In this document: positions 44,594-45,390 of the stretch, piece by piece
How the letters are laid out: every line of letters begins with the position of its first letter
Numbering within the stretch: the first letter of the stretch is position 1
The notes under the pieces: generated by a model
What the model saw: the letters and a program-made list of their open reading frames with translations, nothing else
Databases searched by the model: none
What the model was told of the DNA's origin: nothing
From: Escherichia phage slur09
Sequence record: NC_028840.1
Reading direction: 5' to 3' (one strand)
DNA: 64,000 nt
Translations under genes and position numbers: made by a program

Positions 44594-44816
44594 ATATTCA
44601 TAAATTAGGGAACAGCGAGCCGATTACGCTGAGTGCAGAATCCCAACCGGAGCGCATTGAATAGAGTCGGTGGGTTAGTTGTAAAACTAGTACACAGGGG
44701 GCGGCAATCCCGGTTAGTGGCTAGAACGTGTAAAATGAGGCGTCTGAAACCTCTCCCCTAAACTCTTCTCTGATTTATAAATAGTGGGGTGTGGAAATCA
44801 CTTATGTAGTAACACT

Positions 44817-44888
44817 GCCGTCCTAGTATAATTGGTATTATCAAGCCGTAACTGGTGGAAGATGTAGGTTCGAATCCTACGGTCGGTA
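44817..44888 (+). ncRNA. aberrant tRNA-like element (acceptor stem with U-U mismatch, unresolved anticodon arm)
   Basis: T-arm GTAGG-TTCGAAT-CCTAC, acceptor GCCGTCC/GGTCGGT (6 of 7 pairs), D-loop AATTGGTAT; no clean 5+7+5 anticodon arm. Confidence 0.3.
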
Positions 44889-45390
44889 AGAACTGGATAA
44901 CTGATGCTTTTAACGTAAAAGCTTCCTAGGTTAGTTGCGCACTGCCTAAACCACGCGGTAGTTGGTTCCAGACTAACCAACCAGTCTGCTGAATAGTTTT
45001 ATTACGATTTAACTATGTCCAGGCTAAAGAAGAACTTTAGAAGGTATTCTAGGATAGTGAAGTTCTTTCTCCATATCGGAGTAGTTTTTCAAGCTATCCA
45101 CAAAGTGGGAAATGCTGACATGAGAGATGTCACTAATGGTGCACAATAGCACAGGTAATTCGCGATAACTCATGTTGAGTAGCAGCAAAAGGCGGGAAGT
45201 CATGACCCCAAGCCTAACCGAGTCCTCAATATACCGCAGGACATAACCACTAAGTCACCCTGACTTAAACTGGAAAATAATAGACGTTACTGTATTTTGT
45301 CTTGAAATACTTAATGAGTGAGACTTATGACTCTCCCGGTATCGTCTGTATTTTTAAGAGTTTTTACGAGAGTTCTTAAAAATACTTAAA

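What the first reader, a model, noticed from the sequence alone, without database searches (positions are those of the whole stretch)
44594..45390. About 800-nt ORF-free, promoter-driven region with a degenerate tRNA-like element
A consensus T5-type promoter at 44565-44593 is followed by roughly 800 bp with no ORF of 60 aa or more, ending at tRNA-Arg. Inside is a T-arm (44864-44880) joined to an acceptor stem with a U-U mismatch and no resolvable anticodon arm. The region may encode one or more stable non-coding RNAs or a tRNA pseudogene.
Basis: seen in the sequence. Interest (0 to 1): 0.55.

Follow-up and report, generated by a model that had tools for sequence, protein, structure and literature searches.

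The report
Phage T5 stable RNA "RNAX" locus
The ORF-free stretch is the already annotated but never explained "RNAX" gene of T5-like phages: a roughly 790-nt non-coding RNA built of several conserved folded domains, one of which displays a tRNA-shaped module that evolution actively maintains rather than a decaying tRNA gene.

Summary
In detail: the promoter (44565-44593), the absence of a real ORF, the T-arm (44864-44880), the U·U acceptor mismatch and tRNA-Arg at 45391 are all there.

The window is a T5-like phage (Tequintavirus). In the T5 reference record the homologous interval is annotated "rnaX, stable RNA with unknown functions", between promoter P16-17 and tRNA-Arg. Another T5 record marks the tRNA-like piece as a pseudogene. 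The locus is therefore already known, but it is unexplained and absent from Rfam.

Comparison of about 30 distinct relatives shows a multi-domain structured RNA, not junk:
- A 179-nt core (44780-44958) has eight helices; 93% of cells pair and 29 of 47 pairs show compensatory changes.
- A covariance model finds this core once per phage in Markadamsvirinae, Sugarlandvirus and a Mccorquodalevirinae phage.
- The tRNA-like module keeps its acceptor, D and T arms through compensatory changes. It has a short hairpin in place of the anticodon arm and no CCA, so it cannot decode.
- Domains A and D and the 17-bp hairpin E are also conserved.
- No small ORF is conserved.

Function is inferred only. The RNA is probably a trans-acting stable RNA that uses tRNA mimicry, and it is dispensable in the laboratory (the T5 st0 deletion removes it). 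Its closest analogues are GOLLD/ROOL and YrlA, but it is a member of neither.

The parts
44565..44593 (+). Sigma-70 / T5 early-type promoter (TTGCTA, 17-nt spacer, TATAAT). The probable start is A44600; T5's annotated rnaX 5' end corresponds to 44607.
   Evidence: 10 of 12 match. Homologous to T5 'promoter P 16-17' and the AKFV33 promoter. The start site is inferred from T5 N25-type initial transcribed sequences (own knowledge).
44600..45390 (+). RNAX transcript body (about 790 nt), running from the transcription start to the RNase P site at the 5' end of tRNA-Arg.
   Evidence: Homologous to T5 rnaX 40848-41566 and DT571/2 rnaX. No + strand terminator lies before 46471. Matches occur in 440 (near mode) and 533 (distant mode) phage records.
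44607..44770 (+). Domain A. A closing helix (GGGAA 44608-12 with UUCUC 44765-69) encloses hairpin CAGCG-AGCCGAUUA-CGCUG (44613-31), variable hairpins, and hairpin GAGG-CGUCUGAAA-CCUC (44737-53).
   Evidence: nhmmer finds homologues in 57 loci. The second pair of the 44737-53 hairpin is A-U, C-G, U-A or G-U in different phages. The domain is cleanly absent from T5, DT571/2 and AKFV33 and is replaced by an HNH gene in Tennessee and SB9.
44784..44954 (+). Domain B, the universal core. Its helices are P0 (44784-87/44951-54), P1 (44797-810/44892-905, with conserved C·C and G·G mismatches), P3 (44906-11/44917-22) and P4 (44930-34/44942-46). Invariant motifs are GGGGUG..GAA (44786-96), AACACU (44811-16), AAGA (44888-91) and AAACCAC (44948-54).
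   Evidence: Model R1 gives one full-length hit per phage in 31 loci at E 1e-22 to 1e-57. Pair counts are (model-fitted alignment; plain MAFFT alignment). RNAalifold finds P0, P1, the T arm and P3 on its own.
44817..44888 (+). tRNA-like module inside domain B. It has a 7-bp acceptor stem with U·U, a D arm (44826-29/44838-41) with G18G19, a 4-bp hairpin with a UAAC tetraloop (44845-56) in place of the anticodon arm, and a T arm (44864-68/44876-80) with loop UUCGAAU. The discriminator is A, and there is no CCA.
   Evidence: Rfam tRNA 35.5 bits; not called by ARAGORN. Compensatory changes occur in every stem. All 21 true tRNA genes of the window encode CCA.
44961..44981 (+). Hairpin B2 (GUUGGUU-CCAGACU-AACCAAC).
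   Evidence: RNAalifold on 8 distinct sequences. It is conserved only in Tequintavirus and some Epseptimavirus.
45029..45097 (+). Module C: a long-range stem AGAAGAACUU/AAGUUCUU enclosing a hairpin (UAGAAGG..UUCUA), followed by hairpin CUCC-AUAUC-GGAG.
   Evidence: The inner hairpin is GAA/UUC in the window and GGC/GCC in Sealy and KKP_3711. The module is present in Klebsiella and Enterobacter phages at 83% identity.
45105..45250 (+). Domain D, closed by GUGG (45105-08) with CCAC (45247-50). It contains covarying hairpin 45116-45132 and a hairpin (stem 45190-96/45206-15) with an invariant 9-nt loop AAGUCAUGA (45197-45205), which holds the palindrome UCAUGA.
   Evidence: RNAalifold. Pair counts: 98.6% paired, 12 pairs with double changes against 6.8 in shuffles, 0 to 3 when partners are slid. 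Alignment.
45252..45266 (+). Small invariant hairpin AAGUC-ACCCU-GACUU.
   Evidence: helix 7 never varies. Matched at 85-89% identity in Yersinia, Klebsiella and Enterobacter phages.
45348..45385 (+). Hairpin E: a 17-bp A/U-rich stem with loop UACG, ending 5 nt before tRNA-Arg. It is a candidate 3' protective hairpin or RNase III site.
   Evidence: It is 92.9% identical in Pectobacterium phage DU_PP_V. Where extra ORFs are present they lie after this hairpin. Its function is inferred.
45391..45465 (+). tRNA-Arg(UCU), co-transcribed. Its 5' maturation by RNase P would create the RNAX 3' end.
   Evidence: ARAGORN; Rfam 49.3 bits. The RNase P step is inferred from established tRNA processing.
45500..46447 (+). 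SPFH/Band 7 membrane protein gene, the last gene of the same transcription unit. A terminator-like hairpin follows at 46471-46502.
   Evidence: Pfam Band_7, 64.2 bits; terminator scan.
44122..44556 (+). Upstream gene for a 144-aa YqeY-like protein. This is context only; any link to RNAX is speculative.
   Evidence: Pfam YqeY, 20.8 bits, below the 27-bit cut-off. PDB 1ng6 YqeY, E 0.058, over nearly the full length.

Best explanation
This is the rnaX gene of a T5-like phage. A strong early promoter (44565-44593) drives one transcript that contains a roughly 790-nt non-coding RNA, tRNA-Arg and an SPFH-protein mRNA.

SHOWN:
- The non-coding part is a chain of independently closed, conserved RNA domains: A, the core B, C, D and hairpin E.
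- Core domain B presents a tRNA-shaped module on a 14-position helix with two conserved mismatches.
- The module keeps a 7-bp acceptor stem, a D arm and a canonical T arm, which together form the tRNA 'elbow'. It has no anticodon loop and no CCA, so it cannot take part in decoding.
- Its stems are preserved by compensatory mutations, so selection acts on its shape.

INFERRED:
- RNase P cleavage at the 5' end of tRNA-Arg (45390/45391) releases RNAX. The 17-bp hairpin E then protects the new 3' end, which would explain why the RNA is 'stable'.
- RNase P may also nick the core at 44816/44817.
- The mature RNA acts in trans. Its tRNA-shaped module docks a factor that recognises tRNA shape, such as a host defence or processing enzyme, as a decoy or scaffold.
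- This is an accessory host-interaction function, not an essential one.

Confidence by sub-claim: about 0.9 that it is the RNAX structured non-coding RNA; about 0.6 for the maturation scheme; about 0.3 for the tRNA-mimic decoy or scaffold role.
For: Identity:
- The region is 99.7% identical to phage BB1, and 440 phage records match it.
- The T5 reference annotates the homologous interval as misc_RNA rnaX 'stable RNA with unknown functions', between promoter P16-17 and tRNA-Arg. DT571/2 carries the same annotation.

Structure of the core:
- On a plain MAFFT alignment, 93.1% of cells pair and 14 pairs show double changes against 5.6±1.6 in shuffles (0 of 500 reach the observed value). Slid controls give 0 to 4 such pairs.
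- On 31 sequences aligned to the model, 93.3% of cells pair and 29 of 47 pairs show double changes. The covariation score is 0.383, against 0.158 in shuffles and 0.04-0.07 in slid controls.
- RNAalifold recovers P0, P1, the T arm and P3 without guidance.

Structure of the 3' half: 98.6% of cells pair and 12 pairs show double changes, with 0 of 500 shuffles as high.

Strand: the many G-U pairs work only on the + strand.

Conservation:
- The core is found once per phage in Tequintavirus, Epseptimavirus, Sugarlandvirus, Pantoea, Yersinia and Enterobacter phages and in Pectobacterium phage DU_PP_V of another subfamily.
- In distant phages the core and hairpin E are the best conserved DNA in a 3-kb neighbourhood.

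Not coding:
- No conserved small ORF was found, and variability shows no codon periodicity.
- No remnants of the proteins inserted in relatives were detected.

Not a working tRNA: the anticodon arm is absent, there is no CCA whereas all 21 real tRNA genes encode one, and ARAGORN does not call it.

Features expected of an RNase P substrate:
- The acceptor stem has 7 bp, and U at -1 is conserved.
- In YrlA, a 7-bp acceptor stem is what allows RNase P cleavage (PMC4201824).

Accessory role:
- The T5 st0 deletion mutant lacks the whole locus and is viable.
- The T5 tRNA region tolerates deletions and already holds one anti-defence RNA, the tRNA-Lys that neutralises PARIS (PMC11464382).
Against: - No expression, end-mapping or binding data could be consulted. 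'Stable RNA' rests on GenBank annotation, and the original papers were not retrievable.
- The single-sequence fold is not better than shuffles (z = -1.37).
- The domains are mosaic. Domain A is missing from T5 itself.
- In some Epseptimavirus phages (L031, L048, L052) the tRNA-like interior is replaced by an unrelated insert of about 45 nt while the scaffold stays. The tRNA shape therefore cannot be the only function of the core.
- In phages with ORFs inserted after hairpin E, RNase P at tRNA-Arg cannot define the RNAX 3' end.
- Nothing identifies the proposed partner.
- The model-fitted alignment (A6) and the RNAalifold-derived structure (A7) lean towards the structures tested on them.
Confidence: 0.6

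Rival explanations
1. The region is a cis-acting leader. The folded RNA exists only to process, stabilise or regulate the co-transcribed tRNA-Arg and SPFH mRNA, with the tRNA-like module as an extra RNase P 'punctuation' site. It has no function once released.
For: One promoter and no terminator lie before 46471, so RNAX, tRNA-Arg and the SPFH gene form one transcript. The order RNAX, hairpin E, optional ORFs, tRNA-Arg is conserved across genera.
Against: About 0.8 kb of multi-domain, covarying structure is far more than the other 20 tRNAs of the same phage need; their leaders are short and AT-rich. The core and hairpin E are conserved better than the downstream genes they would serve. T5 annotators list it as a stable RNA species in its own right.
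Confidence: 0.15
2. The region is a GOLLD/ROOL-like ornate RNA. RNAX self-assembles into an RNA-only higher-order particle, for example through the invariant palindromic loop UCAUGA, and the tRNA-like module is cargo or decoration.
For: RNAX is large, multi-domain, phage-encoded, inside a tRNA island, and has a tRNA-shaped insert. [quoted passage not shown] The loop AAGUCAUGA is invariant in 20 distinct sequences while its stem covaries.
Against: No Rfam family, GOLLD and ROOL included, matched even at E up to 10. The domains are gained and lost between close relatives, which fits a single cooperative assembly poorly. Oligomerisation was not tested.
Confidence: 0.1
3. The region is a decaying tRNA pseudogene plus neutral spacer left behind by rearrangements in the tRNA island.
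For: Databases label the element 'tRNA-Pseudo' or 'tRNA-OTHER'. The anticodon arm and CCA are missing. Homing endonuclease genes and other ORFs move in and out of the region. The locus is dispensable in T5 st0.
Against: Compensatory changes keep every stem. The flanks are invariant over subfamily-level distances. The region is conserved better than the neighbouring protein genes. The rest of the 'spacer' covaries too.
Confidence: 0.03
4. The region encodes small proteins (20-60 aa) or is a DNA-level element such as an origin, a nick site or a homing-endonuclease target.
For: Small ORFs exist on both strands: 42 and 44 aa on +, 60 and 59 aa on -. Some annotators call them genes. Hairpin E is conserved in sequence beyond what a stem needs.
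Against: ORF boundaries are not conserved, and peptide matches are short fragments that simply follow nucleotide identity. The antisense frame is interrupted in many relatives, and the third codon position is the least variable (0.127 against 0.159 and 0.18). G-U pairs and compensatory changes point to selection on + strand RNA.
Confidence: 0.03

Closest known systems
Phage T5 RNAX (gene rnaX, GenBank AY543070 40848-41566; also KM979355)
   Same: It occupies the same position, between promoter P16-17 and tRNA-Arg(UCU) and upstream of the SPFH gene. It is 91-99% identical over 44761-45470. This is the same gene.
   Different: The window's copy carries the 150-nt domain A (44612-44760) that T5 itself has lost. 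T5 has about 64 different nucleotides near 45253-45275. The database entry gives no structure, family or function.
GOLLD and ROOL RNAs (Rfam RF01998, RF03087)
   Same: They are large (about 600-800 nt), ornate, multi-domain non-coding RNAs of phages and prophages. They sit next to tRNA islands, sometimes have a tRNA inside, and have no known function (PMC12286853, PMC5737381).
   Different: No match to either covariance model was found. The host range differs (enterobacterial virulent siphoviruses). RNAX domains are modular and partly dispensable. Multimer formation has not been tested.
YrlA / bacterial Y RNAs
   Same: They contain a tRNA-like domain with T and D arms and an acceptor-like stem but no decoding function. 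A 7-bp acceptor stem makes M. smegmatis YrlA an RNase P substrate. Some are phage-encoded (PMC4201824).
   Different: No Ro60/Rsr gene lies nearby and no Ro-binding helix is recognisable. No model matched. In RNAX the acceptor stem is open and joined to a flanking helix; it is not a closed stem-loop.
Canonical tRNA (RF00005) and phage tRNA pseudogenes
   Same: The cloverleaf score is above Rfam's threshold. The T loop UUCGAAU, G18G19, U8 and the 7-bp acceptor stem are all present.
   Different: There is a 4-bp hairpin with a tetraloop (or a long hairpin in other phages) in place of the anticodon arm. There is no CCA. The element is embedded in a conserved helix. It is maintained by covariation rather than decaying.
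Phage T4 stable RNAs 'species 1 and 2' (rnaC, rnaD) and the other T5 stable RNAs (RNA I, III, IV, 1, 2, 2H)
   Same: They are small stable RNAs of unknown function encoded inside a phage tRNA cluster and matured from tRNA-containing precursors (own knowledge for T4; for T5).
   Different: They are much shorter (about 100-170 nt). No sequence relation to RNAX was seen: model R1 hit only tRNAs elsewhere in the window.

Membership tests
T5 RNAX (annotated stable RNA) | Lies between early promoter P16-17 and tRNA-Arg(UCU), upstream of the Band 7 gene | tested here: met
T5 RNAX (annotated stable RNA) | Nucleotide homology to T5 rnaX | tested here: met
   44761-45275 at 91% and 45253-45470 at 98.6% identity to AY543070/AY587007. 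Domain A is extra in the window.
T5 RNAX (annotated stable RNA) | Accumulates as a stable RNA species in infected cells | not testable with these tools
   Only the GenBank note is available. The primary papers are not held.
tRNA (RF00005) | Covariance-model score at or above the gathering threshold | tested here: met
   35.5 bits against 29.
tRNA (RF00005) | A 5-bp anticodon stem with a 7-nt anticodon loop | tested here: not met
   The model skips 18 nt. The sequence forms GCCG-UAAC-UGGU, and relatives have other hairpins at this place.
tRNA (RF00005) | A 3' CCA, which every functional tRNA gene of this phage encodes | tested here: not met
   All 21 tRNA genes end in CCA. The element is followed by AGAACU.
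tRNA (RF00005) | Elbow nucleotides: G18G19, a T loop U54U55C56 with A58, and G53-C61 | tested here: met
   Read directly from the D loop AAUUGGUA and the T arm GUAGG-UUCGAAU-CCUAC.
GOLLD / ROOL | Match to the family covariance model | tested here: not met
   cmscan of 44400-45600 at E up to 10 lists neither family. There was also no gathering-level hit in the window.
GOLLD / ROOL | A large multi-domain conserved structure, phage-encoded, beside a tRNA island | tested here: met
   The family description is in PMC12286853.
GOLLD / ROOL | Homo-oligomeric RNA-only assembly | not testable with these tools
   Only a candidate palindromic loop (45197-45205) was seen.
YrlA / Y RNA | A tRNA-like domain (T arm, D arm, acceptor-like stem) | tested here: met
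YrlA / Y RNA | Encoded next to a Ro60/Rsr (TROVE) gene and carrying a Ro-binding helix; matches the family model | tested here: not met
   The neighbours are a YqeY-like gene and a Band 7 gene. No Rfam match was found.
tmRNA | A tRNA-like domain formed by the two RNA ends, plus a tag reading frame | tested here: not met
   ARAGORN reports no tmRNA in the window.

The most novel reading that the evidence does not exclude
RNAX is the founding member of an undescribed class of large ornate phage RNAs. It is the enterobacterial-phage counterpart of GOLLD/ROOL, with a scaffold that displays a tRNA-shaped module. This reading has two versions. In one, the module captures a host enzyme that recognises tRNA shape, such as a tRNA-directed defence nuclease or a processing enzyme. 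In the other, the RNA self-assembles through its invariant UCAUGA loop. Because it sits in the genetically tractable phage T5, the function of such RNAs would become directly testable.
Probability: 0.2. Interest if true: 0.8.

Novelty: already known. Interest (0 to 1): 0.5.

Why it matters
Large, elaborately folded non-coding RNAs are rare in bacteria and phages. The known ones (GOLLD, ROOL, OLE) still have no assigned function. RNAX has been listed in the T5 genome record as a 'stable RNA with unknown functions'.

This analysis shows that it is not a leftover. It is a multi-domain RNA kept by selection across several genera of Demerecviridae, and its tRNA-shaped module cannot decode.

T5 is easy to manipulate, and its tRNA island is already known to carry an anti-defence RNA. 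The domain map, the covariance model and the specific base pairs given here therefore turn an old annotation into concrete experiments. If the tRNA-mimic or self-assembly idea holds, the result would bear on how phages use RNA shape against their hosts.

Tried and rejected
- Known RNA families: Rfam at gathering level on the whole window, and at E up to 10 on 44400-45600, gave only tRNA hits. The best non-tRNA hit was Hrs13 at 19.2 bits against a threshold of 52, on the wrong strand.
- tmRNA: ARAGORN found none.
- Literature: searches for 'RNAX', for T5 stable RNAs and for T5 transcriptomes returned nothing usable. Wang 2005 and Glukhov 2018 are not held.
- Small proteins: ORFs of 20 aa or more from 13 phages, compared all against all, gave only fragmentary matches with unconserved boundaries. 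The antisense 60-aa frame is broken in many relatives and shows no codon periodicity.
- Gene remnants: tblastn of 14 proteins inserted in relatives against the region gave nothing below E 0.5.
- Host counterpart: blastn found no match in 5,426 complete E. coli genomes. A core-motif scan of 185,579 species' genomes gave 50 pattern matches, and none contained the domain when tested with the model.
- A second copy around tRNA-Arg: weak full-length model hits at tRNA-Arg in Klebsiella and Pectobacterium phages (32-39 bits) are driven by the tRNA itself, because their flanks do not pair.
- P4-loop pseudoknot: pairing of the P4 loop with the sequence after AAACCAC is not conserved in phages with large P4 inserts.
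- Link to the upstream YqeY-like protein: the domain match is below threshold, and Sugarlandvirus phages keep RNAX without that gene upstream.
- Single-sequence folding of the whole RNA is uninformative (z = -1.37).
- A possible extra helix, GGAA/UUCC in T5-type phages against CGAA/UUCG in all others, needs a 1-nt register shift and is left as tentative.
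Full report
WHAT THE WINDOW IS. The region and its surroundings are 99.7% identical to Escherichia phage BB1. The region matches 440 phage records in near mode and 533 in distant mode, almost all of them T5-like phages of Escherichia, Salmonella and Klebsiella. The window is therefore a Tequintavirus genome segment. It contains the T5 tRNA island, where ARAGORN finds 21 tRNA genes between 45391 and 58219.

CHECK OF THE OBSERVATION.
- Promoter. TTGCTA-17-TATAAT lies at 44565-44593 and matches 10 of 12 positions. The scan as a whole finds fewer promoter-like sites than shuffled sequence does, so it is not evidence by itself. But the site is homologous to the promoter annotated 'P 16-17' in T5 and to an annotated promoter in AKFV33.
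- Start site. By analogy with T5 N25-type promoters (my own knowledge), transcription should start at A44600. T5's annotated rnaX 5' end corresponds to 44607.
- ORFs. On the + strand the longest ORF between the promoter and tRNA-Arg is 44 aa. On the - strand there is one TTG-start ORF of exactly 60 aa (44798..44980) and one of 59 aa.
- ORF-free length. 44981-45499 is the second-largest stretch of the window free of ORFs of 60 aa or more on both strands. The largest, 54731-56022, holds other T5 stable RNAs.
- tRNA-like element. Rfam's tRNA model hits 44817-44888 at 35.5 bits (threshold 29) and skips the anticodon arm. ARAGORN does not call it.

IT IS AN ANNOTATED LOCUS.
- The T5 reference record AY543070 annotates misc_RNA rnaX, 'RNAX, stable RNA with unknown functions', at 40848-41566, between promoter P 16-17 and tRNA-Arg. 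DT571/2 carries the same annotation.
- A second T5 record, AY587007, marks the tRNA-like piece as a tRNA pseudogene. Other records call it tRNA-Pseudo-TAA, tRNA-OTHER, tRNA-Sec, tRNA-Ser or tRNA-Pro.
- The heat-stable deletion mutant T5 st0 lacks the whole interval, so the locus is dispensable in the laboratory.
- I could not retrieve any paper that describes RNAX.

THE REGION IS MODULAR. BLAST and nhmmer against fetched relatives divide it as follows.
- Domain A (44607-44770) is present in BB1-like phages, Epseptimavirus, Sugarlandvirus and others. It is cleanly missing from T5, DT571/2 and AKFV33, and an HNH homing endonuclease gene replaces it in Tennessee and SB9.
- Core domain B (44784-44954) is found everywhere.
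- Hairpin B2 and module C (44961-45097) are found in a subset.
- Domain D (45105-45250) and its 3' extension are found in many phages.
- Hairpin E (45348-45385) is found nearly everywhere.
- In several phages, ORFs of 108-169 aa with no Pfam match are inserted between hairpin E and tRNA-Arg.

THE CORE DOMAIN. I read the helices off the sequences of distinct relatives.
- Helices. P0 is GUGG/CCAC (44784-87/44951-54). P1 covers 14 positions (44797-810/44892-905) and has two conserved mismatches, C·C and G·G. The tRNA-like module is joined to P1 by AACACU and AAGA. P3 and P4 are hairpins, and the invariant AAACCAC follows them.
- Independent prediction. RNAalifold on a plain MAFFT alignment of 12 sequences recovered P0, P1, the short hairpin, the T arm and P3. 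Thirteen pairs showed double changes.
- Plain alignment. Counting my structure on that same alignment gave 93.1% paired cells and 14 pairs with double changes, against 5.6±1.6 in shuffles (0 of 500 as high). Slid controls gave 0 to 4.
- Model search. A covariance model (R1) found exactly one full-length copy per phage in 31 loci at E 1e-22 to 1e-57. These include Klebsiella Sugarlandvirus, Pantoea AAS21, Yersinia phiR2-01, Enterobacter KKP_3711 and Pectobacterium DU_PP_V of the subfamily Mccorquodalevirinae.
- Model-based alignment. Here 93.3% of cells pair and 29 of 47 pairs show double changes. The covariation score is 0.383, against 0.158 in shuffles and 0.04-0.07 in slid controls. This alignment leans towards the model, which is why the MAFFT result is reported alongside it.
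- Strand. The many G-U pairs mean the selection acts on + strand RNA.
- Distribution. The motif was not found in bacterial genomes. Fifty pattern matches in 185,579 species' genomes all failed the model. RNAX has no blastn match in 5,426 complete E. coli genomes.

THE tRNA-LIKE MODULE IS MAINTAINED, NOT DECAYING.
- Acceptor pairs 3-70, 4-69, 6-67 and 7-66 change in a compensatory way between lineages. So do T-stem pairs, D-stem pairs and the hairpin that replaces the anticodon arm.
- The T loop UUCGAAU, G18G19 and U8 are all present, so the elbow should form.
- That replacement hairpin takes several forms: GCCG-UAAC-UGGU in the window, GGCG-UAAC-UGCC in KKP_3711, a GAGA-tetraloop hairpin in AAS21, and a long two-part hairpin in Kenya-K44 and Sugarlandvirus. 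No lineage has a 7-nt anticodon loop.
- All 21 real tRNA genes of the window encode CCA, and the module does not. It therefore cannot act in translation.
- U at -1 and a 7-bp acceptor stem are conserved. These are features of RNase P substrates. In YrlA, a 7-bp acceptor stem is what allows RNase P cleavage (PMC4201824).
- One caution: in three Epseptimavirus loci (L031, L048, L052) the interior of the module is replaced by an unrelated insert of about 45 nt, while P0, P1, P3, P4 and the invariant linkers stay. The scaffold therefore has a function of its own.

THE OTHER DOMAINS.
- Domain A has invariant closing helices and an invariant hairpin. Its variable hairpins differ in sequence but not in shape. 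In the hairpin at 44737-53, the second pair is A-U, C-G, U-A or G-U in different phages. The formal covariation signal for this domain is weak.
- The 3' half (45104-45392) gives 59 predicted pairs, 98.6% paired cells and 12 pairs with double changes, against 6.8±1.2 in shuffles. Slid controls give 0 to 3. Because the structure was derived from the same alignment, this comparison is somewhat favourable.
- Domain D is closed by GUGG/CCAC, like domain B. It contains a hairpin whose stem covaries around an invariant 9-nt loop AAGUCAUGA, which holds the palindrome UCAUGA. This is a candidate kissing loop.
- Hairpin E is a 17-bp stem that is almost invariant in sequence as far as Pectobacterium phage DU_PP_V (92.9% identity).
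- In distant phages the core and hairpin E are the best conserved DNA in the 3-kb neighbourhood, better than the flanking protein genes.

NOT CODING, NOT GENE DEBRIS.
- ORFs of 20 aa or more from 13 phages share only fragments that follow nucleotide identity, and their boundaries are not conserved.
- The antisense 60-aa frame is interrupted in many relatives, and the third codon position is the least variable.
- Proteins inserted in relatives leave no tblastn trace in the region.

HOW IT PROBABLY WORKS.
- Shown. There is one promoter and no + strand terminator before 46471-46502. RNAX, tRNA-Arg and the SPFH/Band 7 gene (Pfam 64 bits) therefore form one early transcript.
- Inferred from established tRNA processing. 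RNase P cutting at 45390/45391 frees RNAX. Hairpin E, 5 nt from that end, would block 3' exonucleases, which gives a rationale for the RNA's stability. Where ORFs follow hairpin E, the hairpin itself must mark the end, perhaps as an RNase III site. RNase P may also nick the core at 44816/44817, leaving the two halves held together by P0 and P1.
- Inferred function. RNAX would be a trans-acting RNA whose tRNA-shaped module, displayed on a conserved scaffold, engages a factor that recognises tRNA shape, acting as a decoy or scaffold.
- Support for the inferred function is circumstantial. The locus is dispensable in the laboratory. The T5 tRNA island tolerates deletions and already encodes a tRNA-Lys that neutralises the PARIS defence (PMC11464382).
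- Confidence. I put about 0.9 on 'RNAX is a functional structured RNA', about 0.6 on the maturation scheme and about 0.3 on tRNA mimicry as the mode of action.
- Rivals. These are a purely cis-acting leader (0.15), a GOLLD/ROOL-like self-assembling RNA (0.1), a decaying pseudogene plus spacer (0.03), and small proteins or a DNA-level element (0.03).

COMPARISON WITH KNOWN SYSTEMS.
- RNAX is the same gene as T5 rnaX.
- In kind it resembles GOLLD and ROOL. Those are large ornate phage or prophage RNAs beside tRNA islands, sometimes with a tRNA inside, held in assemblies by kissing loops, and of unknown function (PMC12286853; PMC5737381). RNAX matches neither model, and its domains are gained and lost between close relatives.
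- It also resembles YrlA in carrying a non-decoding tRNA mimic (PMC4201824). But no Ro60 gene lies nearby, and the topology differs.
- It passes the Rfam tRNA score but fails two defining tRNA features, the anticodon arm and CCA.

VERDICT. The locus is already annotated, so it is not a discovery as such. Its architecture, its breadth of conservation and the selected nature of the tRNA-like module appear to be undescribed, and it is absent from Rfam. Its function is still open. Interest is moderate (0.5).

Noticed in passing
window 53384-53508, 53527-53629, 54893-55064, 55558-55702, 55703-55809, 55814-55919: The other T5 'stable RNAs' annotated in the T5 st0 record (rna2, RNAIV, RNA2H, RNA1, RNAI, RNAIII) map here at 87-100% identity, directly upstream of tRNA genes. 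Together with the tRNAs they make up the largest ORF-free stretch of the window (54731-56022). Like RNAX, they have no assigned function and no Rfam family.
   Followed up: partly
window 49097-49171: Rfam's tRNA model hits this site at 40.3 bits, but ARAGORN does not call it. T5 (AY587007) annotates a tRNA-Met next to tRNA-Ser at the equivalent place. It ends in CCA.
   Followed up: partly
L002 1017-1499 (Tennessee); L097 1016-1495 (SB9): An HNH homing endonuclease gene (Pfam HNH_3, E 1.2e-11 for the Tennessee copy) sits exactly where domain A of RNAX lies in the window, between the promoter and the core domain. The SB9 ORF is in the same position but was not scanned against Pfam.
   Followed up: partly
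L003 2271-2771; L054 2414-2890; L096 2204-2713; L052 2029-2538; L055 2822-3148: In several relatives, ORFs of 108-169 aa are inserted between hairpin E and tRNA-Arg. The four scanned (L003, L054, L055, L096) have no Pfam match. This looks like a hot spot for accessory genes inside the RNAX-tRNA-Arg transcription unit.
   Followed up: partly
window 45500-46447; loci L035-L047: The SPFH/Band 7 protein has homologues that are 75-80% identical in viral contigs of about 90 kb and about 140-180 kb. These are clearly not T5-like, which suggests horizontal transfer of this gene between phage families. Model R1 found no RNAX core next to the copies that were searched.
   Followed up: partly
window 44560-44607: The promoter plus the first transcribed bases recur at 80-90% identity at several other sites of T5-like genomes ('repeat c' in AY587007). 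The 5' strand of domain A's closing helix is therefore part of a shared early-promoter initial transcribed sequence.
   Followed up: no
search results: GenBank records named Listeria phage LM 4-14-1, Campylobacter phage C13 and Klebsiella phage KPP2018 carry this Tequintavirus sequence at 96-99% identity. The host labels are probably wrong, or the records are contaminated.
   Followed up: no
window 45197-45205: The 9-nt hairpin loop AAGUCAUGA is invariant in 20 distinct sequences and contains the palindrome UCAUGA. Its form is reminiscent of retroviral dimerisation-initiation loops.
   Followed up: no
window 44784-44796 and 45104-45110; 44948-44954 and 45244-45250: Domains B and D both open with AGUGGG and close with AACCAC (a GUGG/CCAC helix). 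This hints at a common origin or a shared recognition element.
   Followed up: no
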